From an uncultured Methanosarcinales archaeon (lineage in GTDB: Archaea; Nanobdellota; Nanobdellia; Woesearchaeales; JAHJBD01), in NCBI GenBank assembly GCA_964534665.1, contig CAZHRT010000010.1, forward strand, positions 1 to 32,000: a stretch of DNA of 32,000 bases. Direction: 5' to 3'. Shown here in pieces: positions 4,408 to 22,756 of the stretch. The notes beneath the pieces were generated by a model that saw only the letters and a program-made list of their open reading frames with translations, had not been told where the DNA came from and made no database searches. How positions within the stretch are numbered: position 1 is the first letter of the stretch; the number at the start of each line of letters is the position of its first letter. The position numbers and the translations under genes were made by a program.

Positions 4408-5931
4408 ATGGGAACTGAATTTAAAGAAAGGAAAAAAGCCTTAACTGATAAAGAAGGGGTTAAGAAACAGCATGCAAAAGGTAAATTAACTGCTCAAGAA
4501 AGAATTGATCTTCTTTTAGATGATGATTCGTTTACTGAACTTGGTGGTTTTGCTGAATTACAAAGCCATGATTTTAATCTTAAAGAAAAAAGTAGGGCTA
4601 GAGATGGTGTAATAACAGGATATGGTACTATTGGAGGCAATCCAATTTATGTTTATGCACAAGATTTTACTTTTATGGGTGGATCAATGGGTGAGATGCA
4701 TAATCATAAAATTGCTGAACTCATGGATACTGCACTTAAAACCGGTGCACCAATTGTTGGTTTACTTGATTCTGGTGGTGCAAGGATTCAAGAAGGGATT
4801 AATGGTTTAGATGGTGGTGGTAAAATCTTCTTAAGAAATACACTAGCTTCTGGTATTATTCCACAAATTAGTGCGATTATGGGGCCTTGTGCAGGAATTG
4901 CTGTATATTCACCAGCTATTACTGATTTTATTTTTATGATTGATAAAACAAGTAATATGTTTATTACTGGTCCAGATGTTATAAAATCTGTTACTGGAGA
5001 AACAATAAGTTTTGATGATTTAGGTGGTCAAAACGCACATTCAAGAAAAAGCGGAGTATGTCATTTTGAGACTGGAAGCGAAAAAGAGTGTATATTAAAA
5101 ATTAAGAAATTGTTAAGTTACCTGCCACAAAATAACATGGCTAATCCTCCATTAAAAAATACTGGAGATAACACAAAAAGGTTAAATAATAATCTTAAAG
5201 ATATTGTACCAAATGATTCAAAGAAATCTTATGATGTTAGAGATGTTTTAAAAGAAGTTTTTGATAAGAATTCATTTTTTGAAGTTCAAGAAAACTATGC
5301 ACAAAATATTGTAATAGGATTTGCAAGATTAAATAATAATGTTGTTGGTTTAGTTGCTAACCAACCTTGTGTTTTAGCAGGGTGTTTAGACATTAATTCA
5401 TCTGATAAGATTGCACGTTTTGTAAGATCTTGTGATAGTTTTAATATTCCTTTAATTAATATGGTAGACGTAACTGGATTTTTACCAGGAACAGACCAAG
5501 AACACAAGGGAATAATTAGGCATGGTGCAAAGATATTATATGCATATTCTGAAGCAACCGTTCCAAAAATATCATTAGTTATGAGAAAAGCATATGGTGG
5601 GGCGTACATAGCTCTTGTTTCAAAAGATATGGGTTATGACAAAGTAATTGCTTGGCCAGATGCTGAGATTGCGGTAATGGGTGCTGAACAAGCTGTTAAT
5701 ATAATTAATAGAAAAGAATTACTAGGAAAAGATGCTGATAAAATCAGAAAAGAAAAAGTTAAAGAATATTCAGAGAAATTCTTAAATCCATATGTTGCAG
5801 CAGAACAAAATAAAGTAGATATAATTATTGATCCAAGTGAAACAAGAAAAACACTTATTTCTGTATTAGATATGTTGATGAATAAGAGGGTAAGAAGACC
5901 TTCAAAAAAACACGGCAGTATACCATTATAA
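4408..5931 (+). CDS. Acyl-CoA carboxylase carboxyltransferase subunit (PccB/AccD5/12S family, fused alpha-beta CT)
   Basis: 507 aa. It shows FTFMGGSMG, GPCAGIAVYSPAITDF, RFVRSCDSFNIPLINMVDVTGFLPG and RKAYGGAYIA, which are typical of the two crotonase-like CT halves. Confidence 0.9.
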   Translation: MGTEFKERKKALTDKEGVKKQHAKGKLTAQERIDLLLDDDSFTELGGFAELQSHDFNLKEKSRARDGVITGYGTIGGNPIYVYAQDFTFMGGSMGEMHNHKIAELMDTALKTGAPIVGLLDSGGARIQEGINGLDGGGKIFLRNTLASGIIPQISAIMGPCAGIAVYSPAITDFIFMIDKTSNMFITGPDVIKSVTGETISFDDLGGQNAHSRKSGVCHFETGSEKECILKIKKLLSYLPQNNMANPPLKNTGDNTKRLNNNLKDIVPNDSKKSYDVRDVLKEVFDKNSFFEVQENYAQNIVIGFARLNNNVVGLVANQPCVLAGCLDINSSDKIARFVRSCDSFNIPLINMVDVTGFLPGTDQEHKGIIRHGAKILYAYSEATVPKISLVMRKAYGGAYIALVSKDMGYDKVIAWPDAEIAVMGAEQAVNIINRKELLGKDADKIRKEKVKEYSEKFLNPYVAAEQNKVDIIIDPSETRKTLISVLDMLMNKRVRRPSKKHGSIPL

Positions 5932-5932
5932 A

Positions 5933-6313
5933 ATGGAAGAAATAAAAGTAAATATTGATGGTGAAGAGCATAGTGTCCAAGTTGAAGAGTTAGAAGATGG
6001 TAAATTAAGGGTTATGCTTGAGGGTTCTGTTTTTGATATTGAAACAAAACAAGATATTAAAGAAGAAATTATTGAAGAAAAGTCTAAAAAAGGTGAAGAA
6101 GAAGGAGTTGTTGTTGCACCTTTGCCTGGAACAGTGGCATCTATTTCTAAAAAAGTTGGTGATAAAGTTAAGAAAGGAACTTCAATACTAAAATTAGTTG
6201 CCATGAAGATGGAAAACGACATAAAATCTAATAAAGATGGTGTTATTAAAGAAATTAAGATTAAAAAGAATGATACTGTTAATAAGGGAGATATTTTAGT
6301 AATAGTAGATTAA
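5933..6313 (+). CDS. accB: Biotin carboxyl carrier protein (stand-alone biotinyl domain)
   Basis: 126 aa. The C-terminal biotinyl/lipoyl-type domain carries the canonical biotinylation motif in LVAMKMEN. It starts 1 nt after the CT stop. Confidence 0.85.
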   Translation: MEEIKVNIDGEEHSVQVEELEDGKLRVMLEGSVFDIETKQDIKEEIIEEKSKKGEEEGVVVAPLPGTVASISKKVGDKVKKGTSILKLVAMKMENDIKSNKDGVIKEIKIKKNDTVNKGDILVIVD

Positions 6314-6456
6314 GATGCTTCTAAACTTGGTTGTTGTACTTTGATTTTAACCCCATTTCTTTGAAGTTGAGCTATAAGTCTCTTATTTTCTTTTGTAATA
6401 GCTTCTTCTTGAAAATGATAAATCATCTCATTTAGTTCTTCAATCTCTTCCATCAT
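6310..6456 (-). CDS. Small 48-aa ORF (hypothetical, helical/charged)
   Basis: My own translation gives MMEEIEELNEMIYHFQEEAITKENKRLIAQLQRNGVKIKVQQPSLEAS. Its ATG overlaps the TGA of the upstream 75-aa membrane-protein gene (ATGA). It is below the ORF-track length cutoff and I recognise no homology. Confidence 0.3.
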   Translation of the reverse strand: MMEEIEELNEMIYHFQEEAITKENKRLIAQLQRNGVKIKVQQPSLEAS

Positions 6457-6680
6457 TTTCCCCTCGTATTACTTCCTAATAGAATTCCTGATAACACATT
6501 AAGTGCCCATGCTTGAAAAACATTTATAAAATATAATTTTCCAAAAACAAAGTTCCATAACCACATAACTGGAAATGCTAGAATTAAGCCAACTATTGCG
6601 CTTAATACTACAATAAGAAGCATTGTGTAGAAAAGATCTACAATCTTTTTTAAGACTGGAACTCTTTTTAATATCCCCAT
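6453..6680 (-). CDS. Small two-TM membrane protein (hypothetical)
   Basis: 75 aa with two clear hydrophobic helices (LLIVVLSAIVGLILAFPVMWLW and AWALNVLSGILLG). An AT-rich promoter-like region lies upstream. The alternative-frame ORF 6499-6699 was rejected. Confidence 0.5.
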   Translation of the reverse strand: MGILKRVPVLKKIVDLFYTMLLIVVLSAIVGLILAFPVMWLWNFVFGKLYFINVFQAWALNVLSGILLGSNTRGK

Positions 6681-6744
6681 GATTTATGTAAACACACACT
6701 TGTTTTTAAAGTTTTTGAAAAAAGATATAAATGAGTAGATATTA

Positions 6745-7137
6745 ATGGTTTTTATGAATATAACAAAGCACAGGGTTAGGTATGCAGACACTGATCATTT
6801 TGGGGTTGTGTATTATGCTCGTTATTTAGATTGGTTTGAAGCTGGTAGAACAGAAATTTTGCGTGATCAAGGAATTACATACGCCGATTTAGAAAAAAAA
6901 GGTATGTTTGCCCCTGTTGTTGAGATTAAAGTTGAATATAAGAAACCTGCTAAGTATGATGATGTAGTTGAATTAGAAACTACGATAGATAAGATAGGGA
7001 ATTCTAGTATTAAGTTTAATTATAAAGTATTTAATTCTAAAAAAGAATTGTTGTGTGAAGCGTATACAGTTAATGTGTTTATTGATAAAGATATGAAACC
7101 TGTAAGAATTCCAGATAATATTCGTGCTATTGAATAA
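6745..7137 (+). CDS. Acyl-CoA thioesterase, hotdog fold (YbgC/4HBT class)
   Basis: 130 aa. RVRYADTDHFGVVYYARYLDWFEAGRTEILR matches the catalytic-Asp N-terminal region of YbgC-type thioesterases. The start could be the second ATG, at 6757 (MNITKH...). Confidence 0.85.
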   Translation: MVFMNITKHRVRYADTDHFGVVYYARYLDWFEAGRTEILRDQGITYADLEKKGMFAPVVEIKVEYKKPAKYDDVVELETTIDKIGNSSIKFNYKVFNSKKELLCEAYTVNVFIDKDMKPVRIPDNIRAIE

Positions 7138-7792
7138 AAACATCCCCTTCAATAATTTTAATTTTCTTGTTGTCTTTTTTTATTATTAAGAATCCCTCAT
7201 TGTCTAGATTGTATGCAATACCTTCAAAGGTTTTGTTCATTGTTTTAACTTTTACTTTATCTCCGAGGAAAGAATATTTCTTCCAATCTTCAAAAATTTT
7301 CTTTTTATTTATCTTCTTTGTATAAGAATTAAGATTTTTAATTAATGATTTAAGGATATTTTCTTTGTTAATTTCTTTTTTTAAAATGGATTTTAAATTA
7401 GTTGATTTTGTATTTAGATGTAAAGGGGTTTTATTGTTTACATTAATTCCAATTCCCACAATAGTTTTATCTTCAAGGTTTGTAGTAAGGATACCGCAAA
7501 CTTTTTTCTTTTCATAATATAAATCATTTGGCCATTTGATAACTGTTTTTATTTTAGTTATTTCTTTTACTGCTTTATACGCTGCTAAACAGCCAATAAA
7601 AGTGTACAGTTGTGGTTGATCAATCTTAGGTAGAACTATTGATAAATAAATTCCCCCTTTATTAGAACTCCAGGTTCTCTTAAAGCGACCATGACCGTTA
7701 GCTTGGGTCTCAGCAATTAAAATAGAACCAATAGAATAATCTTTTGCTAAATCGTTTGTAGAACTAATTTGTTTAAATTTAAAAATTGTCAT
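7127..7792 (-). CDS. birA: Biotin--protein ligase (class I, no DNA-binding domain)
   Basis: 221 aa. GHGRFKRTWSSNKGGIYLS corresponds to the GRGRxGRxWxSxxGxxLyxS biotinyl-AMP loop, and KWPNDL is also present. It overlaps the accC stop region by 14 nt and converges on the thioesterase gene with an 11-nt overlap. Confidence 0.85.
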   Translation of the reverse strand: MTIFKFKQISSTNDLAKDYSIGSILIAETQANGHGRFKRTWSSNKGGIYLSIVLPKIDQPQLYTFIGCLAAYKAVKEITKIKTVIKWPNDLYYEKKKVCGILTTNLEDKTIVGIGINVNNKTPLHLNTKSTNLKSILKKEINKENILKSLIKNLNSYTKKINKKKIFEDWKKYSFLGDKVKVKTMNKTFEGIAYNLDNEGFLIIKKDNKKIKIIEGDVFIQ

Positions 7793-9668
7793 GATCCATT
7801 AATTCTCTCCTGCCAGACATTACCCATTCATTTGATTGTTGTTTAACAGGTTTTTTCTCGCCTAAATATTTAGTTACTGCAGTTGAGACTATAAGAAGTT
7901 TTTCTTTCTTAGTTAATTTTTTCTTAGTGCTCATAAAATTCTTGACCTCGTCTAAAATATTGTTTTTATCTATGAATGCTGTGGTAACATTGCCTTTGAT
8001 GAAATTATTGTTTCTTATAACTGCTTTATGGAAAGGGATTGTTGTATCTACTCCCTCTATAACATATTCATCTAATGCTCTTCGCATTCTAGATATTGCT
8101 TCCAATCTAGTTTTACCTCTACACATTAATTTAGATATCATTGAATCATAATGAGGGGAAATTATGTGGCCTGTATGTGAAGAAGAACAAATTCTTATAC
8201 CAGGGCCGCCAGGTGCGAGATAGTTAGTGATTGTTCCATTGGAAGGAACAAACTCTATAGGGGATTCTGCATTAATCCTACATTCGATTGCCCAACCATC
8301 AATTTTTATATCTTCTTGTTTAAATGCTAGTTTTGCTCCTGCAGCAATCTTTATTTGTTCTTTAATAAGATCAACACCTGTAATTAATTCGGTAACGCCA
8401 TGTTCAACTTGAATACGAGTATTCATTTCCATAAAATAGAATTTTTGATTTTTATCTAAAAGGAATTCAACTGTTCCTGCACCCTCATAACCTACAACTT
8501 CTCCAGCCTTGATTGCAATTTTACCCATCTCTTCACGCATGTTTGGTGTGATTGCTGGTGAAGGTGCCTCTTCTACTAGTTTTTGATGTCTTCTTTGTAT
8601 GCTACAGTCTCTTTCACCTAAATGGACCACATTACCGTAACGATCTGCGAGAATTTGGAACTCTATATGTTTTGGATCCTCAATAAATTTTTCCATGTAC
8701 ATTGAATCATCGCCAAAAGCAGCTCCAGCTTCTGTTTTTGCACTGTTAAATAAAGATTCTAAATCTTCTTTTTTGTATATGACTCTCATACCACGTCCGC
8801 CGCCGCCAGCTACTGCTTTAATAATAATGGGATACCCTATATTGTCTGCTAATTCCCTAGCATGTTCTGGTGTTTTTAGAAGGTCTTTTACACCTTCAAT
8901 AACTGGAACTTTTGCTTTTATCATAGTTGAACGGGCCTTACTCTTGTTCCCCATTAATTCCATTGCACGTGAAGAAGGGCCAATAAACTTAATCTTATTT
9001 TCTTCACACAATTTGGCAAAATTGGCGTTTTCAGAAAGAAAACCATATCCTGGATGAATTGCGTCTGCTTTAGCTTTTTTAGCAATCTTGATAATTTTCT
9101 TAAAATCAAGATATGCGTTTGGATTGCCTATATTATAGCTTTTATCAGCAAATTTTACAGCTAACCCATCTTTGTCTGGTTTTGAATAAATAACAGTAGT
9201 ATGAATCTTTAGTTCTTTACATGCACGAATAATCCTTAATGCAATTTCACCACGATTCGCAATTAAAACGTTCTTAAATGGCTTTTTATTTCCTAATTTA
9301 GTATAATCTCTTTCTTTAATCATATCAGGACTTAATCCTTTGGTTAACATATCAATGAATGATTTTGAAGAGTCTTCTTCAACAATCTTTTGAATTTTAT
9401 TAGAATCAAGATTTGGTAGTTTATCCATAACATTTTTTGTGATTAGGTTTGTAAAATCATCAATATTTGTTGAATTTGGTAAATGGTCTTCTTTTTCAAG
9501 ACTAATAAGGTGGGATTTAACAAGAGATTCAACTTTCTCATAAATATATGGCATTGAATCTTTAGTTGTTTTCATTAACTTTCTAACTAATTTTGCCCCT
9601 TTAGGTAAAGGTGAAAGTAGATGATTCAGAATCTTCTCAGTACGCCTTTTTTTCCTTCTTCTTGCCAT
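7779..9668 (-). CDS. accC: Biotin carboxylase (ATP-grasp) subunit with an unusual ~140-aa N-terminal extension
   Basis: 629 aa. The core starts near residue 141 (FKNVLIANRGEIALRIIRACKEL) and includes YPIIIKAVAGGGGRGMRV, EMNTRIQVEH and RINAE. The extension begins MARRRKKRRTEK, and there is also a ~60-aa C-terminal tail. Confidence 0.9.
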   Translation of the reverse strand: MARRRKKRRTEKILNHLLSPLPKGAKLVRKLMKTTKDSMPYIYEKVESLVKSHLISLEKEDHLPNSTNIDDFTNLITKNVMDKLPNLDSNKIQKIVEEDSSKSFIDMLTKGLSPDMIKERDYTKLGNKKPFKNVLIANRGEIALRIIRACKELKIHTTVIYSKPDKDGLAVKFADKSYNIGNPNAYLDFKKIIKIAKKAKADAIHPGYGFLSENANFAKLCEENKIKFIGPSSRAMELMGNKSKARSTMIKAKVPVIEGVKDLLKTPEHARELADNIGYPIIIKAVAGGGGRGMRVIYKKEDLESLFNSAKTEAGAAFGDDSMYMEKFIEDPKHIEFQILADRYGNVVHLGERDCSIQRRHQKLVEEAPSPAITPNMREEMGKIAIKAGEVVGYEGAGTVEFLLDKNQKFYFMEMNTRIQVEHGVTELITGVDLIKEQIKIAAGAKLAFKQEDIKIDGWAIECRINAESPIEFVPSNGTITNYLAPGGPGIRICSSSHTGHIISPHYDSMISKLMCRGKTRLEAISRMRRALDEYVIEGVDTTIPFHKAVIRNNNFIKGNVTTAFIDKNNILDEVKNFMSTKKKLTKKEKLLIVSTAVTKYLGEKKPVKQQSNEWVMSGRRELMDHDNF

Positions 9669-9812: not shown

Positions 9813-10313
9813 ATGAAAACAATAGACGAACTTAAGAATGAAAAAGGAGAATTAGATATGAATGCGATTAAGCAGATTATTCCATATGAACATCCATTTT
9901 TAATGATTGATAAAGTAATTAGTGTTGATAAAAATAAGATAGTGGCAATAAAGAATGTTTCAGCTTCTGATGAATTCTTAAAAGGTCATTTTGCTGGATT
10001 TCCCATTATGCCGGGTGCATTAATGGTAGAAGGTATGGGGCAAGCAGCTACTTTGCTTATTAGATATAATCTTGAAGAACATTTCAAGAAAGATGTTCTA
10101 GCATTTAAAATAAAAGATGCTAAATTCACTGCACCAGCTTTTGCAGGTGATCAACTAGAGTATGAAGTTGTATTAATGGGCCAAGACGAAAGAGGTGCTT
10201 TAGTACAAGCTAAAGCTAAGAAAGAAGGAAATGTAATAGCTGAAGCTGGAATGATGCTTGCTGTTGTTGACAAAAAAGAATTTAGATCTCAACATAGTCC
10301 TGTTTATAAGTGA
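9813..10313 (+). CDS. fabZ: FabZ-like (R)-3-hydroxyacyl-thioester dehydratase (hotdog fold)
   Basis: 166 aa. IPYEHPFLMIDKV...KNVSASDEFLKGHFAGFPIMPGALMVEGMGQAA matches the FabZ catalytic His/Glu block (lPHRyPFLlvDrv...GHFP..PimPGvl.iEa.aQ). Confidence 0.85.
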   Translation: MKTIDELKNEKGELDMNAIKQIIPYEHPFLMIDKVISVDKNKIVAIKNVSASDEFLKGHFAGFPIMPGALMVEGMGQAATLLIRYNLEEHFKKDVLAFKIKDAKFTAPAFAGDQLEYEVVLMGQDERGALVQAKAKKEGNVIAEAGMMLAVVDKKEFRSQHSPVYK

Positions 10314-10318: not shown

Positions 10319-11443
10319 ATGTATATAAAAGGGGTTGGAATGACCCAATTTAGTCTAGAAGATAGAAGCACTCATGCCATGGCTTTTGAAGCTGTGACAG
10401 GTGCATTGAAAGATGCAGACATGTCTATAAATGATGTTGAAGCTTGTGTTGTATCAACAGTTGATACTAATGCAAATGATGAAAAACAAAGGCATTATCC
10501 TTCTGTTGTTAGTTCTTTATTTAAGAAAAGAATCCCTATAATTAGGGTGCCTGCTGTTTGTGGTGGTGGTGGTGCAGCTTTATGGACAGCAAATAGATTA
10601 GGATATGATAATGTACTTGTTTTAGGAACAGATAAGATTGCTTGTAATAAAACAGGAGTAGTAACAAAAGAAATTTTAGGTGCTGCTGAAAGAGTTTATA
10701 GTCAAGAAGAAGGATTGGTTTTTCCTGCTGAGAATGCAATTCTTGCACAACAACATATGTTAAAATTTGGAACGACAACTGATGATTTAGCAGAAGTTGC
10801 TTTTAAGAATCATGAAAATGCATTTATTAATCCAAAAGCTAATTTTTATGGGAAAAAAGTAAGTCTTGAACAAATTAAGAATTCTCCTGTTGTTTCCTCA
10901 CCGTTTAGATTATTTGATTGTAGTATTAGTGTAAATGGAGCAGCAGCTGTTGTTTTATCCAAAGACAAAACAGATGTTAATATTGCAGGATCTGGATTTG
11001 CAACTGATTACTTGATGACTTTTGAAAGAGAAAGTATGGTTGAATTAAAAGCTACTAGATTAGCAGCTGAACAAGCTTATTCACAAGCAGGGATTAATGC
11101 TTCAGAGGTTAATGTTGCTGAGGTTCATGATGCTTTTACTATCTTAGAAATAATGGCATATGAAGATTTGGGTTTTTGTAAGAAAGGTGAAGGTGCTAAT
11201 TTAATAAGAAAAGGAATTGTTAAATTAGATGGTAAGATTCCTGTTAATACTAGTGGTGGGCTTAAAGCCAGAGGACATCCAATAAGTCCAACTGGATTAG
11301 CTCAGATTTATGAAATAGTTAAACAATTAAGAGGGGACTGTGGAGATAGACAGATTAGTTCACCAAAATATGGCCTTACTGAAAATAAAGGTGGTGTTGG
11401 TGCTTCAATCAGTGTTCACGTCCTTAAGAAGGTAGGTGGTTAG
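10319..11443 (+). CDS. Thiolase-fold acyl-CoA C-acyltransferase (archaeal/SCP-x-like type), paralogue 1
   Basis: 374 aa. The candidate nucleophile Cys is in IIRVPAVCGGGGAALW. AEVHDAFT and SGGLKARGHPISPTG are also present. Confidence 0.85.
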   Translation: MYIKGVGMTQFSLEDRSTHAMAFEAVTGALKDADMSINDVEACVVSTVDTNANDEKQRHYPSVVSSLFKKRIPIIRVPAVCGGGGAALWTANRLGYDNVLVLGTDKIACNKTGVVTKEILGAAERVYSQEEGLVFPAENAILAQQHMLKFGTTTDDLAEVAFKNHENAFINPKANFYGKKVSLEQIKNSPVVSSPFRLFDCSISVNGAAAVVLSKDKTDVNIAGSGFATDYLMTFERESMVELKATRLAAEQAYSQAGINASEVNVAEVHDAFTILEIMAYEDLGFCKKGEGANLIRKGIVKLDGKIPVNTSGGLKARGHPISPTGLAQIYEIVKQLRGDCGDRQISSPKYGLTENKGGVGASISVHVLKKVGG

Positions 11444-12566
11444 AGTGATTCAAAGATGGGTATGTAAAGCGTGTAATAAAAAATGGATTTATCCAGTTGA
11501 AAAATGTATTTATTGTGATGGACAAATAAGTAAAGAAGTTGGAACAAAGTTAAAAGTAATTGGAACTACAAAAGTTGCAATATCTTCTCCAGAACATCCA
11601 ATTATTCCTTATTTTACCATGATATTAGAAGACGAAAATGGTAATAGGATGCCTAAAAAAACAATGAGAGAATATCAAATTGGTGATGAGTTTAAATGGG
11701 AGAAAAGTGATGATGAAAGTGCTGTATCAATAATCAAGATAAAATATGATTATGATTTTGCTGTTAAGCAAGCTTTAGAATTGATAAATGATATTGAAGT
11801 TGGTAGTGAATCAAAAGTTTTAATCAAACCAAACATTATGTCGGCAGCTTATGCATATTTAGCAATTACCACAAATCCAAAAGTTGTAAGAGGTGTTGTA
11901 AATTACCTTGTTGGAAAAGGTGTTAAAAAAGAAAATATTACAATTGCTGAACAAGCACAGTTTTCTGAATTTGACAAAGCAATAACAAGATCAGGATTTA
12001 AGAAATTAGCTAAAGAATTAGGTGTTAAGTTAGTAGACCTAGCTACAACTGAATTTGTCGAAAAGGAAAGTGAAGGATTTAAGTTTAAAATTTCTAACTT
12101 GATGTATGAGAACAATGTGATAATTAATGTTCCTGTTATGAAAACACATTTATTGTTAGGAGTTTCTGGAGCATTAGAAAATATGACAAGGGTTGTTTCA
12201 TCTGACAATTATAAAGAAATCGCTAAAGATCCTGTAAAGGCTTTAGAAGCAATAGGCCATCTTCACAAGGTTTTGCCAAAGTATGTAACTGTTGGTGATG
12301 CAAGTATTGGTATGCAAGGTAATGGACCATTAAATTATGGTAATCCTGCTTTTCTTGATATGATACTTGCTAGTAAAGACCCTGTTGCACTAGATAAGAT
12401 ATTCCAAGAGATTGGTATGTTACGAAAAGTGCCACTTATTGAAACAGCTGAAAAGTTAGGAATTGGTTCTGCTGATTTAAGAGAGATTCCTGTTGTTGGT
12501 GATGAGCTTGATGCTTGCCGTAGGGAATTAATGCCAGCTATTGGTTCAAAATTAATTAAGATGTAA
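11436..12566 (+). CDS. Fusion protein: DUF35-like Zn-ribbon + OB fold (thiolase partner) joined to a DUF362-like domain
   Basis: 376 aa. The N-terminus has CKACNKKWIYPVEKCIYC (C-x2-C-x11-C-x2-C) and an OB-like segment LKVIGTTKVAISSPEHPIIPYFTMILEDENGNR...IGDEF. The C-terminal ~270 aa has VLIKPNIM, PVMKTHLLLGVSGALENM and DASIGMQGNGP, resembling DUF362 as I remember it. The start is GTG at 11436 or 11445, overlapping the thiolase stop. Confidence 0.6.
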   Translation: MVRVIQRWVCKACNKKWIYPVEKCIYCDGQISKEVGTKLKVIGTTKVAISSPEHPIIPYFTMILEDENGNRMPKKTMREYQIGDEFKWEKSDDESAVSIIKIKYDYDFAVKQALELINDIEVGSESKVLIKPNIMSAAYAYLAITTNPKVVRGVVNYLVGKGVKKENITIAEQAQFSEFDKAITRSGFKKLAKELGVKLVDLATTEFVEKESEGFKFKISNLMYENNVIINVPVMKTHLLLGVSGALENMTRVVSSDNYKEIAKDPVKALEAIGHLHKVLPKYVTVGDASIGMQGNGPLNYGNPAFLDMILASKDPVALDKIFQEIGMLRKVPLIETAEKLGIGSADLREIPVVGDELDACRRELMPAIGSKLIKM

Positions 12567-12569: not shown

Positions 12570-13622
12570 ATGGTTGAAAAACAATTAATGAAAGGAAACG
12601 AAGCACTAGTTCATGCAGCTATAAAAGCTGGATGTACGTTTTATGCAGGTTATCCTATAACACCACAAAATGAGATTCCTGAAACAATGTCAAAATTAAT
12701 GCCTAAAGTTGATGGGGGAGTTTTTGTACAAGCTGAAGCTGAACTTTCTGCAATTAATATGATCTTTGGTGCTAGTGCTGCAGGGGTAAGGTGTATGACC
12801 TCATCTAGCAGTCCAGGAATTGCTTTAAAGCAAGAAGGCATATCTTATATTGCTGCTGCCGAATTACCTTGTGTGATAGTTAATATGGTTCGTGGTGGGC
12901 CTGGATTAGGGAATATTAATGCTTCACAAGCAGATTATTTTCAAGCTGTTAAAGGTGGTGGACATGGAGATTACAGATTGATTGTAATAGCACCTCATAC
13001 ATTACAAGAATTATATGACCTTACAATGAATTGTTTTGATTATGCTGATTATTATAGAAATCCTGTTTTAATATTGGGGGATGGTATTCTTGCACAGATG
13101 GTTGAACCAGTTGAATTGAAAGAATATGAAAAGATTTTGGATTTACCATCTAAAGATAATTGGACCTTGACTGGTTGTAAAGGAAGGAACCCCCATGTTG
13201 TTAAGACTTTATTGTTAGAACCTAGTGATTCATTGGCTAAGCATAATGTGCATCTTAAAGAGAAATATCAAAAGATAAGTAATGAGCTTTGTTTATGTGA
13301 AGAGTATAAAACAGAAGATGCTGACATATTGATTGTTGCTTATGGTATAACTGCAAGAGTTTGCAAAGAAGCTATTGATATTGCTCGTGATAGCGGTAAA
13401 AAAGTTGGGTTGATAAGGCCAATAACTTTGTGGCCATTTCCTAAAAAAATTCTATCTAAATATAAAGGAAAAGATTTCTTAGTTGTAGAGATGAGTAATG
13501 GACAGATGATTGAAGATGTTAAATTAAATTTAGAATGTCAAGGAAGATTTGAGTTTTTAGGTTGTGGTGGTGGATGGTATCCTGATACAAAACAGATATT
13601 GGAGAAATTAAATGGAATGTAA
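12570..13622 (+). CDS. 2-oxoacid:ferredoxin oxidoreductase, alpha subunit
   Basis: 350 aa. GNEALVHAAIKAGCTFYAGYPITPQNEI and the later PGIALKQEG...VRGGPGLG are typical of Por/Kor/Vor alpha subunits. Confidence 0.85.
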   Translation: MVEKQLMKGNEALVHAAIKAGCTFYAGYPITPQNEIPETMSKLMPKVDGGVFVQAEAELSAINMIFGASAAGVRCMTSSSSPGIALKQEGISYIAAAELPCVIVNMVRGGPGLGNINASQADYFQAVKGGGHGDYRLIVIAPHTLQELYDLTMNCFDYADYYRNPVLILGDGILAQMVEPVELKEYEKILDLPSKDNWTLTGCKGRNPHVVKTLLLEPSDSLAKHNVHLKEKYQKISNELCLCEEYKTEDADILIVAYGITARVCKEAIDIARDSGKKVGLIRPITLWPFPKKILSKYKGKDFLVVEMSNGQMIEDVKLNLECQGRFEFLGCGGGWYPDTKQILEKLNGM

Positions 13623-13649: not shown

Positions 13650-14606
13650 GTGTATACTGTGGTAATAGCACTAGTAACTGGTGGGGCAGGATTTATTGGG
13701 AGCCATTTAGTAGAAGATTTAGTTGAGAAAGGATATCAAGTAAAAGTTATTGATAGTTTAATTAAAGGTAAAAGTGCAACAATTCAAAAGTTAATTGATC
13801 AAGGTAAAGTTGAATTTTTTGAAGGAGATATAAAAAATAGGGATAGTGTTGATAAAGCTATGAAGAATGTAGATTATGTTTTTCATACTGCAGGTACACA
13901 TATAATTAATTGTGGTAAAAGTCCGGAAGATGCAATTGAGTGTAATGTTCATGGAAGTTACAATGTGTTCAAATCTGCATTAGATAATAATGTTAAAAGG
14001 GTAATTTTTAGTTCAAGTTCAAGCATATATGGGGAACCAAAAAGTTTACCTATGTCTGAAGATAGTGAACTGAATATTGTAGAACCCTATGCTGCAAGCA
14101 AACAAATGGCTGAACATCTATTGAAATTTTTGGGAACTAAAGGATTGAAATATAATATATTAAGATATTTTAATGTTTATGGCTCAAGACAAGCTGTGCA
14201 TGCTTACTATACAACTGTCGTGATAGATTTTATTAATAAATTGATGAATGATGAATCACCAATTATTAACGGAAAAGGTGATCAAAGTCTAGACTTTACA
14301 CATGTAAGTGATGTTGTAAAAGGAAATATAGCTGCAGCTGAATCTACGGTTGAGAATGAAATATTTAATATTGGAACTGGACAAAGTACATCTATTGCTG
14401 ATCTTGCAAAAATGATTATCAAAACTTTAGGTAAAGATATTGAACCCAGATTTAGGGATAGAAAAGTTTTGGTAACAAGAAAAAAAGCTGACACAATTAA
14501 AGCTGAAAAAATACTTGGATTTAAATCTCAAGTTTCTATTGAAGAAGGTATAGCAAAAATTACTAAAGAAATTGCTGAGAATCCTGAATTATATAAAGGT
14601 AGATAA
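13650..14606 (+). CDS. NAD-dependent nucleotide-sugar epimerase/dehydratase (extended SDR)
   Basis: 318 aa with TGGAGFIGSHL and the YAASK catalytic pair. The start may instead be the GTG at 13659, in which case the GGTG spanning 13649-13652 would serve as its RBS. Confidence 0.85.
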   Translation: MYTVVIALVTGGAGFIGSHLVEDLVEKGYQVKVIDSLIKGKSATIQKLIDQGKVEFFEGDIKNRDSVDKAMKNVDYVFHTAGTHIINCGKSPEDAIECNVHGSYNVFKSALDNNVKRVIFSSSSSIYGEPKSLPMSEDSELNIVEPYAASKQMAEHLLKFLGTKGLKYNILRYFNVYGSRQAVHAYYTTVVIDFINKLMNDESPIINGKGDQSLDFTHVSDVVKGNIAAAESTVENEIFNIGTGQSTSIADLAKMIIKTLGKDIEPRFRDRKVLVTRKKADTIKAEKILGFKSQVSIEEGIAKITKEIAENPELYKGR

Positions 14607-14608
14607 GA

Positions 14609-15763
14609 ATGCTAGAAATAAATGATAAGATATGGAAAATTCCTTTATTCCAAACGTATTGGGATGAAAATGATGTTGAAGCTATTAATGAAGTAGTTAG
14701 AAGGGGGAGCTCCTGGGCAACTGGACCTGAGGTTGTCGAGTTTGAAAAAAAAATCGCTGAATTTAATGAAAGAAAATATGCTTTGGCTTTTAATTCTGGA
14801 ACAAGTGCTTTGCATGCAATGTTGCTTGCATATGATGTTAAAGGTAAAGAAGTAATTGTACCCTCATTTACTTTTATTGCTACGGCAAATGCAGTTGTAT
14901 TAGCTGGTGGAAAGCCAATTTTTGCTGAATCTGAAGATGAAACATTTGGATTAGATGCAGAAGATGTTTTATCTAGAATAAATAAAAATACTGCTGCAAT
15001 CTTAACTTTAAACTATGGTGGAGGAGTTTCAAAAGATATTGAAAAATTAAAGCAGATTGCTGATGAGAAAAACATATTATTACTAGAAGACAATGCACAT
15101 TCTTTTGGTGTAAAGAAAAATGGTAAAATGTGTGGAACATTTGGGCAAGCAGCTGCATTAAGCTTTTGTCAGAATAAACTAATAACTACTGGTGAAGGTG
15201 GTGCTGTGGTTACAGATGATGAAAAAATATTTGAAAAAATTAAGTTGATTAAAAGCCATGGAAGAATTAAAAATTCTAAAGAAGATTTTTCATCAATTAA
15301 AAATTATGGGTATGTGGAAGTGGGTTATAATTATAAGATACCTACAATGGGGGCGGCTTTAGGACTCTCACAACTTAATAAATTTGAAAAAATAATGAAT
15401 TTAAGAATTGAAGCTGGAACAAGATTAAATGATGGGATAAAAGAATTTGTTAAAGTATCTGAACCTTATGAAAATTCTGACCACTTTTTTCAAAAATATA
15501 CTATTATGCTTAATAATAATGAAACCAGAGATAAACTACAATTATTTTTAAGAGATAAAGGCATAATGAGTAAAGTTTACTATGAACCTATCCATCTAGA
15601 AAATATTTATAGAGATAATTATGGTTATAAAGAAGGGGATTTGCCTAAAACAGAAGCAATGTCTAAGAAAATCCTTACCTTGCCTATGTGGCCAGGTATT
15701 TCAAATAATGATATAGATTATATAATTAATTCAATCAAGGAGTTTTTTAAAAATGAAGTGTAA
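14609..15763 (+). CDS. DegT/DnrJ/EryC1-family PLP-dependent sugar aminotransferase
   Basis: 384 aa with NSGTSALHAMLLA, DNAHSFG and SFCQNKLITTGEGG (PLP lysine context). Its last 11 nt overlap the korB start. Confidence 0.85.
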   Translation: MLEINDKIWKIPLFQTYWDENDVEAINEVVRRGSSWATGPEVVEFEKKIAEFNERKYALAFNSGTSALHAMLLAYDVKGKEVIVPSFTFIATANAVVLAGGKPIFAESEDETFGLDAEDVLSRINKNTAAILTLNYGGGVSKDIEKLKQIADEKNILLLEDNAHSFGVKKNGKMCGTFGQAAALSFCQNKLITTGEGGAVVTDDEKIFEKIKLIKSHGRIKNSKEDFSSIKNYGYVEVGYNYKIPTMGAALGLSQLNKFEKIMNLRIEAGTRLNDGIKEFVKVSEPYENSDHFFQKYTIMLNNNETRDKLQLFLRDKGIMSKVYYEPIHLENIYRDNYGYKEGDLPKTEAMSKKILTLPMWPGISNNDIDYIINSIKEFFKNEV

Positions 15764-15774
15764 GACATTAAAAG
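15751..15774 (+). repeat. Right copy of the duplicated korA/korB junction (functional korB start)
   Basis: See the left copy at 13610-13642. The DegT C-terminus (KNEV-stop) mirrors the KorA C-terminus (LNGM-stop) at the nucleotide level. Confidence 0.55.
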
Positions 15775-16481
15775 ATGATGGGATGCATTATTGTCCTGGT
15801 TGTGGGCATACTCAAGTGCATAGAATGATTGCTGATCTAATTGATGAATTAGGTATCCGAGAAAAAACTATTGCTTCTGCACCAGTTGGTTGTGCAGTAT
15901 TATTTTATAATTATTTTAATGTTGATGTTATTGAATGTGCACATGGTCGTGTTCCTGCTGTCATGGGCGCTATAAAAAAAGTTAATCCTGATAAGTTTGT
16001 TTTATGTTACCAAGGGGATGGTGATTTAGCGGCAATTGGTACAACTGAAACAATACATACTGCTAACCGTGGAGAAAACTTAACTGTTATTTTTATCAAT
16101 AATGCAATTTATGGTATGACTGGTGGTCAAATGGCACCTACAACTTTACCAGGACAAATTACAACTACAACACCAAAAGGAAGAGGGAATAATAATGAAG
16201 GATTACCTCTTAAGGTTTGTGAATTATTAAGCGTACTTGGAGGTCCAACATACATTGAAAGATGTGCAGTAAATAGTGCTGAGAATATGAAGAAAACTAA
16301 AGAAGCCATCAAAAAAGCAATTCAATGCCAATTAGAAGGTAAAGGTTATAGTTTTATAGAGATATTGTCTGGCTGTCCAACCAACTGGAAAGTTAGTGTA
16401 AAAGATTCTATTGGCTTTATTGATAAGATGATTGAATATTTCCCATTAGGTGTTTTCAAGGATGTAAGAAATGAGAGATGA
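15753..16481 (+). CDS. 2-oxoacid:ferredoxin oxidoreductase, beta (TPP-binding) subunit
   Basis: 242 aa with YCPGCGH and YQGDGDLAAIGTTETIHTANRGENLTVIFINNAIYGMTGGQ (TPP/Mg site). Confidence 0.9.
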   Translation: MKCKTLKDDGMHYCPGCGHTQVHRMIADLIDELGIREKTIASAPVGCAVLFYNYFNVDVIECAHGRVPAVMGAIKKVNPDKFVLCYQGDGDLAAIGTTETIHTANRGENLTVIFINNAIYGMTGGQMAPTTLPGQITTTTPKGRGNNNEGLPLKVCELLSVLGGPTYIERCAVNSAENMKKTKEAIKKAIQCQLEGKGYSFIEILSGCPTNWKVSVKDSIGFIDKMIEYFPLGVFKDVRNER

Positions 16482-17001
16482 AATTAAGATAGCAGGTTAT
16501 GGTGGACAAGGGGTTGTCTTAGCTGGAAGTTTGATAGCTAACACTGCAATGCGTCAAGGATTGTATACTTGCGGCATGGTATCTTATGGTGCTGAAATGA
16601 GGGGAGGAACAGCAAACTCAACTGTAATAGTAAGTGATAAACCAATAAGTAGCCCAATTGTTATAATGCCAAATGTTGTATTAATATTAAATGAACCTTC
16701 TCTTAAGAAATTTGAAGAGAGTGTAGAAAAAGGTGGTGTTATAATTATTAATACATCAGAATGTAAGAAAAAAGTTTCTAGACAAGATATTGAAATTGTT
16801 GAGGTTGCTGCAACAGATGCTGCAGTAGAACTGGGAAATAAGAAAGTTACAAATATGGTCATGGTTGGAGCATATATTAAGAAAAAAGGTTCAATAAGAT
16901 TAGAAGAAGCCATAAAGAATCTAGATGTTGTAATCAAGAGAAAAGAATTGATTGATATTAATAAAAAAGCTTTGGAAAAAGGTGGGGAATTATGTATGTA
17001 A
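16471..17001 (+). CDS. 2-oxoacid:ferredoxin oxidoreductase, gamma subunit
   Basis: 176 aa. IKIAGYGGQGVVLAGSLIA is typical of the gamma subunit/domain. It overlaps korB by 11 nt and the next thiolase by 10 nt. No delta (2x[4Fe-4S]) subunit gene is present in the window. Confidence 0.85.
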   Translation: MRDEIKIAGYGGQGVVLAGSLIANTAMRQGLYTCGMVSYGAEMRGGTANSTVIVSDKPISSPIVIMPNVVLILNEPSLKKFEESVEKGGVIIINTSECKKKVSRQDIEIVEVAATDAAVELGNKKVTNMVMVGAYIKKKGSIRLEEAIKNLDVVIKRKELIDINKKALEKGGELCM

Positions 17002-20082: not shown

Positions 20083-20085
20083 TGA

Positions 20086-20131: not shown

Positions 20132-20134
20132 TCA

Positions 20135-20917: not shown

Positions 20918-20918
20918 A

Positions 20919-22755: not shown

Positions 22756-22756
22756 A

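What the first reader, a model, noticed from the sequence alone, without database searches (positions are those of the whole stretch)
10319..12566. Thiolase translationally coupled to a DUF35::DUF362 fusion protein
Seen: the ORF overlapping the thiolase stop starts with a C-x2-C-x11-C-x2-C ribbon and an OB-like segment, which is the DUF35 layout. It continues for ~270 aa with motifs I associate with DUF362 (KPN..., MKTH..G..GALENM, GMQGNGP).

Established knowledge: in archaea, DUF35 proteins scaffold the acetoacetyl-CoA thiolase/HMG-CoA synthase complex of the mevalonate pathway.

Inference: no HMG-CoA synthase is present here. Instead the DUF35 module is covalently joined to a domain of unknown function and sits directly upstream of the OFOR alpha subunit. 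That suggests a different channeling partner, for example tethering the thiolase to the acyl-CoA-producing OFOR or to another cycle enzyme. I do not recall this fusion being described.
Basis: partly seen in the sequence, partly recalled or inferred. Interest (0 to 1): 0.75.

Follow-up and report, generated by a model that had tools for sequence, protein, structure and literature searches.

The report
Thiolase-docking domain fused to DUF362
A small archaeon (DPANN, Woesearchaeota-type) encodes, right behind a thiolase gene, a conserved protein that joins a divergent thiolase-docking "DUF35" module to a domain of unknown function (DUF362). The gene sits inside a CoA-based fatty-acid and ester-lipid gene cluster, which gives DUF362 its first clear metabolic context.

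Summary
ORF 11436-12566 (376 aa) overlaps the stop of an SCP2-type thiolase by 8 nt. Its C-terminal part is a bona fide DUF362 domain (Pfam E=2.5e-38). Pfam does not detect DUF35 in its N-terminal ~95 aa, but that region is a 4-Cys zinc ribbon plus OB fold. It is homologous to DUF35 by profile-profile comparison (96.7%, E=3.7e-10) and by fold: the top 19 PDB hits are all DUF35 proteins.

The fusion is not an artefact. At least 191 species-level DPANN genomes carry it, and a thiolase lies immediately upstream in 64 of 67 loci.

The OFOR-tethering idea is not supported. OFOR follows the gene in only 10 of 64 loci; in 43 the next gene is a second thiolase.

The conserved context is FabZ-thiolase-fusion-thiolase-FabG, plus acyl-CoA dehydrogenase/ETF, acetyl-CoA carboxylase, two PlsC and GpsA. 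This looks like an ACP-free fatty-acid and phosphatidate pathway.

The same N-terminal module is fused elsewhere to 3-hydroxyacyl-CoA dehydrogenase or a FabG-like SDR, again directly after a thiolase.

Best reading: a docking module that holds a partner domain on the thiolase. It is a new variant of known DUF35 scaffolds. What DUF362 itself does remains unresolved.

The parts
11436..12566 (+). Fusion protein (376 aa): DUF35-like zinc-ribbon/OB module joined to DUF362. An alternative start lies at GTG 11445.
   Evidence: ORF. 78 full-length homologues at 47-73% identity. AlphaFold2 model pLDDT 91.7, pTM 0.90.
11436..11720 (+). N-terminal DUF35-like module (about aa 1-95): C10/C13/C24/C27 zinc ribbon followed by an OB fold. 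It lacks the roughly 20-aa N-terminal segment of canonical DUF35.
   Evidence: hhalign 96.7%, E=3.7e-10 against canonical DUF35. Foldseek top 19 PDB hits are all DUF35 proteins. No Pfam hit.
11817..12401 (+). DUF362 domain (aa 128-322 by Pfam). The structured domain begins at about aa 97.
   Evidence: PF04015, E=2.5e-38. Fold resembles LarA-family racemases, Foldseek E about 1e-7, TM about 0.4. DUF362 and DUF2088 share Pfam clan CL0471 (PMC11770544).
10319..11443 (+). Thiolase 1, SCP2/archaeal type. Cys81 and His320 are retained. Its stop overlaps the start of the fusion.
   Evidence: Thiolase_C_1, E=4.8e-46. Among its PDB relatives are the DUF35-partnered thiolases 6esq_A, 7pxp_C, 6ok1_A and 5m3k_C. 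Residues.
9813..10313 (+). FabZ-like 3-hydroxyacyl dehydratase (hotdog fold).
   Evidence: PF07977. NCBIfam FabZ PRK00006, 119.6 bits against a cut-off of 113. The FabZ-thiolase-fusion order is found in 56 related loci.
12570..13622 (+). 2-oxoacid:ferredoxin oxidoreductase alpha subunit (VorB-type). It belongs to a subclade-specific insertion.
   Evidence: POR_N and PFOR_II. NCBIfam VorB subfamily, 512 bits against a cut-off of 399. Present after the fusion in 10 of 64 loci.
13650..15763 (+). NAD-dependent sugar epimerase/dehydratase and DegT-type aminotransferase, inserted between OFOR alpha and beta. Seen only in this window.
   Evidence: Pfam. In nine of the ten related OFOR-containing loci, beta follows alpha closely.
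15753..17001 (+). OFOR beta subunit (15753-16481) and gamma subunit (16471-17001).
   Evidence: TPP_enzyme_C and POR.
16992..18128 (+). Thiolase 2, a paralogue 55% identical to thiolase 1. Cys81 and His323 are retained.
   Evidence: It is the gene directly after the fusion in most relatives.
18129..18875 (+). FabG-like 3-oxoacyl reductase (SDR).
   Evidence: adh_short_C2, E=3.9e-63. NCBIfam FabG subfamily above its cut-off.
18928..22088 (+). Acyl-CoA dehydrogenase (18928-20082), ETF beta (20135-20917) and ETF alpha (20919-22088). This is a likely enoyl-CoA reductase system.
   Evidence: Pfam. Best NCBIfam matches are clostridial acryloyl-CoA reductase AcrC and AcrA, both below their cut-offs.
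22114..24357 (+). Two PlsC-family acyltransferases (22114-22755 and 22757-23389) and NAD-dependent sn-glycerol-3-phosphate dehydrogenase GpsA (23386-24357).
   Evidence: Pfam.
4408..7137 (+). Acyl-CoA carboxylase carboxyltransferase (4408-5931), BCCP (5933-6313) and 4HBT thioesterase (6745-7137).
   Evidence: Pfam. NCBIfam.
7127..9668 (-). Biotin-protein ligase (7127-7792) and biotin carboxylase (7779-9668), transcribed divergently from the FabZ operon.
   Evidence: Pfam. The same arrangement is conserved in most of the 80 related loci.

Best explanation
The 376-aa protein is a subunit of a CoA-based, ACP-independent fatty-acid synthesis machinery of Woesearchaeota-type DPANN archaea.

Its N-terminal ~95 residues are a divergent DUF35 module (Zn ribbon plus OB fold). 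Like DUF35 in the archaeal thiolase/HMG-CoA synthase complex, BbsAB, PhlABC and ChsH2/Shy-Ltp2/Sal, this module docks onto the dimer of the SCP2-type thiolase encoded just upstream, and possibly onto the paralogue encoded downstream. The fused C-terminal domain is thereby held at the thiolase.

In sister proteins that C-terminal slot is filled by 3-hydroxyacyl-CoA dehydrogenase or a FabG-like SDR. Those enzymes consume the thiolase product and so pull the unfavourable Claisen condensation forward. Here the slot holds DUF362. The most likely role of DUF362 is therefore a thiolase-proximal partner that binds or processes the acyl-CoA substrate or the 3-oxoacyl-CoA product, or that recruits the separately encoded FabG and FabZ.

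Shown:
- the domain identities;
- conservation of the fusion;
- the tight, near-universal coupling to a thiolase gene;
- the fatty-acid/phospholipid gene context;
- the alternative C-terminal partners.

Inferred:
- physical docking to the thiolase;
- the synthetic direction of the pathway;
- any activity of DUF362.
For: Domains:
- DUF362 by Pfam.
- DUF35 homology by hhalign, 96.7%, and by fold.

Not an artefact: 78 full-length homologues, and 191 GTDB species representatives encode a relative.

Coupling to a thiolase:
- A thiolase lies immediately upstream in 64 of 67 loci. Stop-to-start distances are mostly -8 to +10 nt.
- Thiolase 1 has DUF35-partnered thiolases among its PDB relatives and keeps Cys81 and His320.

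Portable docking module: a profile of the N-terminal domain finds only 121 clusters among 1.84 billion representatives. Of 67 long members, 31 carry DUF362, 18 carry 3HCDH_N+3HCDH and 1 carries an SDR. Every HCDH or SDR fusion examined sits 3-4 nt after a thiolase.

Fatty-acid context:
- FabZ-Thl-fusion is found in 56 loci. FabG, ACAD/ETF, PlsC x2, GpsA, ACC and BirA are also present.
- Distant fusions in a different gene order still sit with FabA/FabZ, SDR, NMO (FabK-like), BioY or ACC.

Precedent:
- DUF35 fused to the hydratases ChsH2 and Shy docks them onto the thiolase-fold aldolases Ltp2 and Sal (PMC12329534).
Against: - No physical interaction was tested.
- The Pfam DUF35 models do not detect the N-terminal module.
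- The module lacks the conserved N-terminal segment of canonical DUF35 (alignment A5).
- TM-scores to solved DUF35 structures are only about 0.5.
- The fatty-acid clusters already encode a separate FabG and FabZ, so DUF362 is not needed to fill an obvious missing step.
- Across distant fusions the DUF362 half has few residues conserved at >=85% (T146, P148, N231, N249, D320, G355). That argues either for a loosely constrained, possibly non-catalytic domain or for alignment error.
- The acyl-CoA dehydrogenase/ETF pair could equally serve beta-oxidation.
Confidence: 0.65

Rival explanations
1. The DUF35 module tethers the thiolase to the acyl-CoA-producing 2-oxoacid:ferredoxin oxidoreductase encoded immediately downstream, or to a carbon-fixation cycle enzyme, so that acyl-CoA is channelled from OFOR to the thiolase.
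For: - OFOR alpha starts 4 nt after the fusion in the window.
- The same fusion-to-OFOR-alpha-beta-gamma order recurs in 10 related species-level loci.
- The OFOR is VorB-like and could plausibly supply acyl-CoA primers.
Against: - OFOR is absent from this position in 54 of 64 evaluable loci. In those, thiolase 2 or FabG follows directly.
- The fusion is equally conserved in genomes without the insertion.
- In the window, OFOR alpha and beta are themselves split by two sugar-modification genes.
- The same docking module is fused elsewhere to ketoacyl-CoA reductases, not to OFOR-related domains.
Confidence: 0.07
2. DUF362 is an active enzyme related to the LarA racemases. It would work by cofactor-dependent hydride transfer or epimerisation at the 3-oxo/3-hydroxy position of the thiolase product, so it would be functionally equivalent to the HCDH and SDR domains that replace it in sister fusions.
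For: - It occupies the same position as HCDH and SDR behind the same docking module.
- Its fold is similar to LarA-family hydride-transfer enzymes, E about 1e-7, and the two families share a Pfam clan.
- Within the close family many polar residues are invariant: K131, T146, E172, D201, N231, K236, E248, N249, D288, D320.
Against: - There is no sequence-level match to LarA.
- The NPN-binding and catalytic residues of LarA (R75, K184, H200, H108, H174) could not be shown to be conserved.
- H238 of the KTH motif is Asp in a good share of close homologues.
- No larB, larC or larE genes are in the window.
- FabG is already encoded in the cluster.
- Few DUF362 residues are conserved across distant fusions.
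Confidence: 0.15
3. The cluster is catabolic (beta-oxidation). The fusion would then be a subunit of a degradative thiolase complex rather than a synthase.
For: - Acyl-CoA dehydrogenase with ETF alpha/beta, an SDR, a hotdog hydratase and thiolases would also constitute a beta-oxidation set.
- Thiolases are reversible.
Against: - The genes are co-clustered with acyl-CoA carboxylase (BC, CT, BCCP), biotin ligase or BioY, two PlsC acyltransferases and GpsA. These are biosynthetic.
- The dehydratase and reductase are FabZ/FabG-type.
- The best matches of the ACAD/ETF are clostridial enoyl-CoA-reducing systems.
- No acyl-CoA synthetase is present in the window.
Confidence: 0.1
4. The N-terminal module is not a thiolase partner but a nucleic-acid or translation-related Zn-ribbon/OB domain. 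The best single structural hit is the S. solfataricus 'translation recovery factor' Trf. On this reading the gene order is incidental.
For: The top Foldseek hit is 6htj (Trf), E=3.6e-4. OB folds often bind nucleic acids.
Against: - The other 17 of the top 19 hits are DUF35-family proteins: 16 are subunits of thiolase-fold complexes and one is the standalone DUF35 protein 3irb.
- A thiolase lies immediately upstream in 64 of 67 loci and in all HCDH, SDR and other fusions examined.
Confidence: 0.03
5. A sequencing or assembly frameshift has artificially merged a DUF35 gene with a DUF362 gene.
For: None found.
Against: - The same uninterrupted architecture, about 370-380 aa, occurs in more than 100 protein clusters from independent assemblies and in 191 GTDB species representatives.
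- AlphaFold2 predicts one compact two-domain protein with pTM 0.90. Residues 97-101 become ordered only when the DUF362 domain is present.
Confidence: 0.005

Closest known systems
Archaeal fatty acid synthase complex of Sulfolobus acidocaldarius: ketothiolase Saci_1121 / DUF35 Saci_1120 with ketoacyl-CoA reductase and MaoC dehydratase (Schmerling et al., bioRxiv 10.1101/2024.07.05.601840)
   Same: - The chemistry is ACP-independent and CoA-based.
- An SCP2-type thiolase is paired with a DUF35-type protein encoded next to it.
- In that system the DUF35-bearing thiolase is the hub that holds the next enzymes of the cycle.
   Different: - Here the DUF35-like module is fused to DUF362, is not recognised by the Pfam DUF35 models and lacks the N-terminal segment.
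- The dehydratase is FabZ-type rather than MaoC.
- The enoyl reductase is ACAD/ETF rather than an MDR.
- An acyl-CoA carboxylase, two PlsC and GpsA are co-clustered.
- No complex has been demonstrated.
[quoted passage not shown]
   Same: - The thiolase subfamily is the same: 6esq_A matches thiolase 1 at E=1.6e-53.
- The DUF35 fold is the same: 6esq_E-G match at E=4e-3 to 6e-3.
- The partner drives an unfavourable condensation by capturing the product (summarised in PMC12329534).
   Different: - No HMG-CoA synthase is in the window.
- DUF35 there is a free protein of about 130 aa.
- A relative (L002) carries that canonical HMGCS-like/thiolase/DUF35 set in addition to the fusion, so the two are distinct systems.
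ChsH2(DUF35)-Ltp2 and Shy(DUF35)-Sal steroid side-chain aldolase complexes (PDB 6OK1, 9MYR)
   Same: They set the precedent for DUF35 covalently fused to another pathway enzyme, serving to dock that enzyme onto a thiolase-fold dimer. 6ok1_B and 6ok1_D are among the best structural matches.
   Different: - The fused partner there is a MaoC hydratase.
- The thiolase-fold protein is a retro-aldolase.
- The systems are bacterial and catabolic.
BbsAB benzoylsuccinyl-CoA thiolase (7PXP), PhlABC (5M3K) and MucABC (9VBT)
   Same: Each has a free DUF35 subunit bound to an SCP2-type thiolase-fold subunit. All are recovered as structural matches of the N-terminal module and of thiolase 1.
   Different: Their DUF35 is unfused, and the pathways differ: toluene degradation, and acylphloroglucinol or antibiotic synthesis.
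LarA (lactate racemase) superfamily, DUF2088
   Same: It is the sister family of DUF362 in Pfam clan CL0471. The fold of the C-terminal domain matches LarA and malate racemase structures at E about 1e-7.
   Different: There is no sequence-level match. Conservation of the NPN-binding residues is not established. No NPN biosynthesis genes are in the window.
DUF35-like::3-hydroxyacyl-CoA dehydrogenase and DUF35-like::SDR fusions found here (for example P0147, P0170, P0202)
   Same: They carry the same N-terminal module (profile E=1e-20 to 1e-12) and sit in the same position 3-4 nt after an SCP2-type thiolase.
   Different: Their C-terminal partner is a known ketoacyl-CoA reductase. They sit in polysaccharide-biosynthesis clusters, presumably making 3-hydroxybutyryl-CoA, rather than in fatty-acid clusters.

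Membership tests
DUF35 (Pfam zf-ChsH2 PF12172 + OB_ChsH2_C PF01796) | Match to the Pfam family models | tested here: not met
   No hit for aa 1-128, even at E<=10. A canonical DUF35 from a relative (L002) does hit both models.
DUF35 (Pfam zf-ChsH2 PF12172 + OB_ChsH2_C PF01796) | Four-Cys rubredoxin-like zinc ribbon | tested here: met
   C10-x2-C13-x10-C24-x2-C27. These Cys are invariant or >=90% conserved in close homologues and 88-91% conserved in distant fusions.
DUF35 (Pfam zf-ChsH2 PF12172 + OB_ChsH2_C PF01796) | OB fold directly after the ribbon; overall fold match to solved DUF35 structures | tested here: met
   The AlphaFold2 model has strands 30-36, 39-47, 59-65 and 71-76. The Foldseek top 19 PDB hits are all DUF35 proteins, including 3irb, at E=3.6e-4 to 3.4e-2 and TM about 0.5. 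The next hits are noise.
DUF35 (Pfam zf-ChsH2 PF12172 + OB_ChsH2_C PF01796) | Detectable sequence homology (profile-profile) | tested here: met
   hhalign gives 85.6% / E=5.6e-6 and 96.7% / E=3.7e-10 over 80 columns, with ribbon and OB in register.
DUF35 (Pfam zf-ChsH2 PF12172 + OB_ChsH2_C PF01796) | Conserved N-terminal segment of about 20 aa before the ribbon, and the C-terminal OB strands ending in the Y-G-x-K-F-x-P motif | tested here: not met
   In canonical DPANN DUF35 proteins (A5), W10, R11, R16, Y124, K127, F128 and P130 are conserved. In the fusion the ribbon starts at residue 10, and the hhalign alignment stops at template column 108 of 132.
DUF35 (Pfam zf-ChsH2 PF12172 + OB_ChsH2_C PF01796) | Encoded next to, and binding, an SCP2-type thiolase-fold protein | tested here: inconclusive
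   Gene adjacency is met: 64 of 67 loci, mostly overlapping or less than 10 nt apart. Physical binding could not be tested with these tools.
DUF362 (Pfam PF04015) | Match to the family model above the gathering threshold over its full length | tested here: met
   132.6 bits against a cut-off of 24. Model positions 1-197 of 200 align to aa 128-322.
LarA / DUF2088 nickel-pincer racemases | Sequence membership | tested here: not met
   No DUF2088 hit in Pfam. No LarA hit in PDB profile searches at E<=10. There is fold similarity only.
LarA / DUF2088 nickel-pincer racemases | NPN-binding residues (R75, K184, H200) and catalytic His108/His174 | tested here: inconclusive
   The residues are defined in PMC11770544. 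No residue-level structural alignment was available. H238 of the KTH motif is variable in close homologues.
LarA / DUF2088 nickel-pincer racemases | Presence of larB, larC and larE cofactor-synthesis genes | not testable with these tools
   None occurs among the window's ORFs, but the rest of the genome was not available.
Archaeal thiolase/HMG-CoA synthase/DUF35 complex | HMG-CoA synthase partner encoded with the thiolase and DUF35 | tested here: not met
   No HMGCS-family ORF is in the window. In relative L002 an HMGCS-like gene pairs with a different thiolase and a canonical DUF35.
Archaeal ACP-independent fatty acid synthase complex (S. acidocaldarius type) | Thiolase + DUF35-type partner + ketoacyl-CoA reductase + dehydratase + enoyl-CoA reductase genes | tested here: met
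   All functions are encoded in one cluster, but with non-orthologous dehydratase (FabZ) and enoyl reductase (ACAD/ETF).
Archaeal ACP-independent fatty acid synthase complex (S. acidocaldarius type) | Stable physical complex mediated by the DUF35 protein | not testable with these tools
   This needs pull-down, SEC, native MS or multimer modelling.

The most novel reading that the evidence does not exclude
DUF362 is a previously unrecognised catalytic partner of thiolases. Docked by its DUF35-like module, it would capture or transform the 3-oxoacyl-CoA product, or deliver a malonyl- or acyl-CoA substrate made by the co-clustered carboxylase, and so make thiolase-based chain elongation effectively irreversible. 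That would define a DPANN-type, ACP-free fatty acid synthase feeding bacterial-type sn-glycerol-3-phosphate ester lipids in an archaeon. It would also give the large DUF362 family its first biochemical function.
Probability: 0.2. Interest if true: 0.85.

Novelty: new variant of a known kind. Interest (0 to 1): 0.6.

Why it matters
- **Lipid divide.** DUF35 scaffolds are how archaea make the uphill thiolase condensation work, in mevalonate synthesis and, as recently shown, in ACP-free fatty-acid synthesis. This finding extends the principle to DPANN archaea. Their gene cluster carries everything from acyl-CoA carboxylase to PlsC and GpsA, so archaea that may build bacterial-type ester lipids bear directly on the 'lipid divide'.
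- **A modular docking tag.** The docking module is fused alternately to DUF362, to 3-hydroxyacyl-CoA dehydrogenase, to a FabG-like SDR, or to other unknown domains, always behind a thiolase. It is therefore a 'Rosetta-stone' tag for proteins that work on thiolases.
- **A testable lead for DUF362.** DUF362 is a widespread domain with no known function and no solved structure matched by the sequence-profile search here. It now has a concrete hypothesis: it is a thiolase-associated component of acyl-CoA metabolism.
- **Annotation gap.** The standard Pfam DUF35 models miss this module entirely, so current annotation labels these proteins only as 'DUF362 domain-containing'.

Tried and rejected
- **Pfam on the isolated N-terminus** and **HMMER profile searches of PDB sequences with the N-terminal and full-length alignments** gave only chance hits (an IgE receptor lectin, an RNA polymerase zinc ribbon). 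Sequence-to-profile methods cannot see the DUF35 relationship; profile-profile comparison and fold comparison were needed.
- **No multimer model** of the fusion with thiolase 1, thiolase 2 or OFOR alpha could be made. Both structure-prediction jobs went to the full-length and N-terminal monomers.
- **Aligning the DUF362 loop H238-x3-G-x-SG-x2-E248 with the LarA loop carrying His174 and Lys184.** I tried this from memory and they appear to be in register, with Lys184 replaced by Glu. I could not verify it with a LarA sequence or coordinates, so I do not use it as evidence.
- **Ferredoxin domain in ETF alpha.** I checked whether the 65-aa N-terminal extension is one, as in some FixB proteins. 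It has no Cys motif, so I rejected the idea.
- **tRNA scan of the window:** none found.
- **Frameshift or artefact:** rejected on conservation.
- **C-terminal domains of P0201, P0203, P0174, P0213 and P0216** are not detectable as DUF362 by hhalign and have no Pfam match. They are left unidentified.

Full report
**What is in the sequence**

The window is archaeal, with about 31% G+C. It encodes RadA, RadB, an RPA-like protein and an S2 ribosomal protein. The closest relatives of the target protein are named Woesearchaeota or Nanoarchaeota archaeon, that is DPANN.

ORF 10319-11443 is a 374-aa SCP2/archaeal-type thiolase (Thiolase_C_1, E=4.8e-46). The next ORF, 11436-12566, starts at a GTG that overlaps the thiolase TAG by 8 nt. 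A second in-frame GTG at 11445 lies 1 nt after the stop.

**Domain identities**

The C-terminal part is an unambiguous DUF362 domain (PF04015, aa 128-322, 132.6 bits against a cut-off of 24).

The N-terminal part is not recognised by any Pfam DUF35 model, even at E<=10. HMMER profile searches of PDB sequences also find nothing. Three independent lines nevertheless show it is a divergent DUF35 module:

1. *Conservation.* W8, C10, C13, W17, C24, C27, H54, P55, P58, Y59 and K75 are invariant or nearly so in 78 homologues.
2. *Profile-profile comparison.* I compared the N-terminal family with canonical DUF35 proteins of related DPANN. Those proteins do hit PF12172 and PF01796. hhalign gives 85.6% / E=5.6e-6 with 23 sequences. 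With 86 sequences it gives 96.7% / E=3.7e-10 over 80 columns, with ribbon and OB fold in register.
3. *Structure.* The full-length AlphaFold2 model is confident (pLDDT 91.7, pTM 0.90).
   - In Foldseek against the PDB, the C-terminal domain hits LarA-family racemases at E about 1e-7. This is expected, because DUF362 and DUF2088 share Pfam clan CL0471.
   - Every other hit below E=0.05 is a DUF35 protein: BbsA 7PXP, ChsH2-DUF35 6OK1, Trf 6HTJ, PhlB 5M3K, the M. thermolithotrophicus DUF35 6ESQ, and MucB 9VBT.
   - The isolated N-terminal model gives 19 DUF35 proteins as its top 19 hits, including 3IRB. After those, scores drop straight to noise.

The module differs from canonical DUF35 in two ways. 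It lacks the conserved ~20-residue segment before the ribbon, and it lacks the last OB strands with the Y-G-x-K-F-x-P motif. In their place the chain runs directly into DUF362. Residues 97-101 are ordered only in the full-length model.

**Not an artefact, and widely distributed**

More than 100 protein clusters of 370-380 aa cover 98-100% of the query. In addition, 191 GTDB species-representative genomes encode a relative. The best 80 are all DPANN, from marine and groundwater samples. A variant of about 460-495 aa carries an extra C-terminal extension of about 110 aa with no Pfam match.

**Gene context**

I mapped the window's proteins onto 80 related loci with tblastn.

| Position relative to the fusion | Result |
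|---|---|
| Thiolase immediately upstream, same strand | 64 of 67 evaluable loci |
| Thiolase stop to fusion start | mostly -8 to +10 nt |
| FabZ-thiolase-fusion order | 56 loci |
| Next gene downstream: second thiolase paralogue | 43 of 64 |
| Next gene downstream: FabG-like SDR | 10 of 64 |
| Next gene downstream: OFOR alpha | 10 of 64 |

The OFOR alpha-beta-gamma block is therefore an insertion between the fusion and thiolase 2 in one subclade. Only this window has a sugar epimerase and a DegT aminotransferase inserted between OFOR alpha and beta.

The wider conserved cluster contains:

- FabZ, above the NCBIfam cut-off;
- two thiolases that are 55% identical and both retain the nucleophilic Cys and the GHP His;
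- FabG;
- an acyl-CoA dehydrogenase with ETF alpha/beta, whose best matches are clostridial enoyl-CoA-reducing AcrC and AcrA;
- two PlsC acyltransferases and GpsA;
- divergently transcribed, biotin carboxylase and biotin ligase;
- further upstream on the plus strand, carboxyltransferase, BCCP and a 4HBT thioesterase.

No ACP, ketoacyl-ACP synthase or HMG-CoA synthase is in the window. Taken together this is a CoA-based fatty-acid and phosphatidate pathway.

Published surveys have already noted FabG, FabZ and FabI, GpsA and PlsC in Woesearchaeota (PMC8204110, PMC6431249, PMC10936187). None of them mentions this protein. None of the 14 papers holding a word that starts with 'DUF362' concerns thiolases.

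**The most informative result: the N-terminal module is portable**

A profile of the module, searched against 1.84 billion representative proteins, finds only 121 clusters. It is therefore a narrow subfamily and does not pull in generic DUF35. Of 67 long members:

- 31 carry DUF362;
- 18 carry a complete 3-hydroxyacyl-CoA dehydrogenase (3HCDH_N plus 3HCDH) that begins right after the OB fold;
- 1 carries a FabG-like SDR;
- several carry unidentified C-terminal domains.

Every one of these I could look up sits 3-4 nt downstream of an SCP2-type thiolase:

- the HCDH fusions P0147 and P0170;
- the SDR fusion P0202;
- a distant DUF362 fusion, P0172;
- a fusion with an unknown C-terminal domain, P0203.

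Two other distant fusions sit in different gene orders but still with fatty-acid genes. P0143 sits with BioY, SDR, FabA-NMO and NMO. P0201 sits with FabA, thiolase, SDR, BirA, BC, BCCP and CT.

Among the solved-structure relatives of thiolase 1 are the thiolase-fold subunits known to bind DUF35: 6ESQ_A, BbsB, Ltp2 and PhlC.

**Mechanism**

Established knowledge:

- DUF35 binds SCP2-type thiolase-fold dimers and scaffolds the next enzyme. The next enzyme is HMG-CoA synthase in methanogens, PhlA in PhlABC, and the hydratases ChsH2 and Shy, to which DUF35 is fused (PMC12329534).

Inference:

- The N-terminal module docks the protein on thiolase 1, and perhaps on thiolase 2 as well.
- The C-terminal domain is thereby held beside the thiolase active site.
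- In the HCDH and SDR fusions this arrangement couples condensation directly to ketoreduction.
- In the DUF362 fusion, DUF362 occupies that slot.

What DUF362 does there is unresolved. It could process or bind the 3-oxoacyl-CoA. It could handle the malonyl- or acyl-CoA supplied by the co-clustered carboxylase or VOR-type OFOR. Or it could recruit the free FabG and FabZ.

Two observations argue against a simple ketoreductase role. First, the clusters already encode FabG. Second, across distant fusions the docking half is much better conserved than the DUF362 half: about 17 residues are conserved at >=85% in the docking half, against 6 within the Pfam-defined DUF362 span.

**Verdict**

This is a new variant of a known kind, namely DUF35-mediated thiolase complexes and fused DUF35 docking domains. 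It has added value as the first metabolic context for DUF362 and as a component of a probable ester-lipid pathway in DPANN archaea.

Scores:

- Interest: 0.6.
- Confidence in the docking-subunit-of-fatty-acid-synthesis reading: about 0.65.
- Confidence in any specific DUF362 activity: 0.2 or less.

Noticed in passing
window 12570-17001: The three OFOR subunit genes are split. Alpha (12570-13622) is separated from beta and gamma (15753-17001) by an NAD-dependent sugar epimerase/dehydratase (13650-14606) and a DegT-type aminotransferase (14609-15763). The aminotransferase overlaps the OFOR beta start by 11 nt. In nine of the ten related OFOR-containing loci, beta follows alpha within about 100 nt; L052 instead has gaps between the subunits.
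   Followed up: partly
window 12570-13622: The OFOR alpha subunit scores above the NCBIfam cut-off for the VorB (3-methyl-2-oxobutanoate / 2-ketoisovalerate) subfamily. It may therefore supply branched or short acyl-CoA primers to the fatty-acid cluster rather than act as a pyruvate oxidoreductase. No delta (ferredoxin) subunit gene is present.
   Followed up: no
window 3688-24357, and loci L001, L003, L010, L011: A complete-looking, ACP-free fatty-acid plus phosphatidate gene set sits in an archaeal genome. It comprises carboxyltransferase, BCCP, thioesterase, BirA, biotin carboxylase, FabZ, two thiolases, FabG, ACAD/ETF, two PlsC and bacterial-type GpsA. It is flanked by RadB, S2 and RadA in the same order in several relatives.
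   Followed up: partly
window 7779-9668 (- strand): The biotin carboxylase is 629 aa and has an N-terminal extension of about 125 aa before the Biotin_carb_N domain. Relatives are of similar length, 616-646 aa. The extension has no Pfam match.
   Followed up: no
window 6310-6680 (- strand): Two small ORFs (48 aa and 75 aa, the latter hydrophobic) lie between BCCP and the thioesterase. Two small genes of 47 aa and 79-82 aa occupy the same position in L001, L010 and L011, so they are probably real genes of unknown function.
   Followed up: no
L002 12209-15922: A relative that carries the 486-aa form of the fusion also has a canonical HMGCS-like / thiolase / DUF35 set (PF12172 + PF01796) directly downstream of the fatty-acid genes. 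One genome can therefore hold both a canonical DUF35 system and the DUF35-like::DUF362 system.
   Followed up: partly
L005 / L006 and L012 / L013: Thiolase plus DUF35-like::3-hydroxyacyl-CoA dehydrogenase (or ::SDR) gene pairs sit inside polysaccharide-biosynthesis clusters, with glycosyltransferases, a hexapeptide acyltransferase, a polysaccharide deacetylase and a Wzx-like flippase. This suggests a dedicated 3-hydroxybutyryl-CoA supply for acylating sugars.
   Followed up: no
P0112, P0117, P0118, P0123, P0127, P0130-P0132, P0146, P0168, P0172, P0196: A long form of the fusion (about 460-495 aa) has a conserved C-terminal extension of about 110 aa with no Pfam match. In P0112 and P0117 the extension ends in -GG, as does thiolase 1 of the window (-KKVGG); thiolase 2 ends -KKIGGV. 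The significance is unknown and may be coincidence.
   Followed up: no
window 28669-31730 (- strand): Two adjacent ORFs of 801 aa and 221 aa have no Pfam match at E<=0.001.
   Followed up: no
Genome contigs record titles: Many MAGs carrying this DPANN-type cluster are titled 'uncultured Methanosarcinales archaeon' (the binchicken and SRP co-assemblies). Their gene content and similarity to Woesearchaeota/Nanoarchaeota MAGs suggest these titles are placeholders or mislabels.
   Followed up: no
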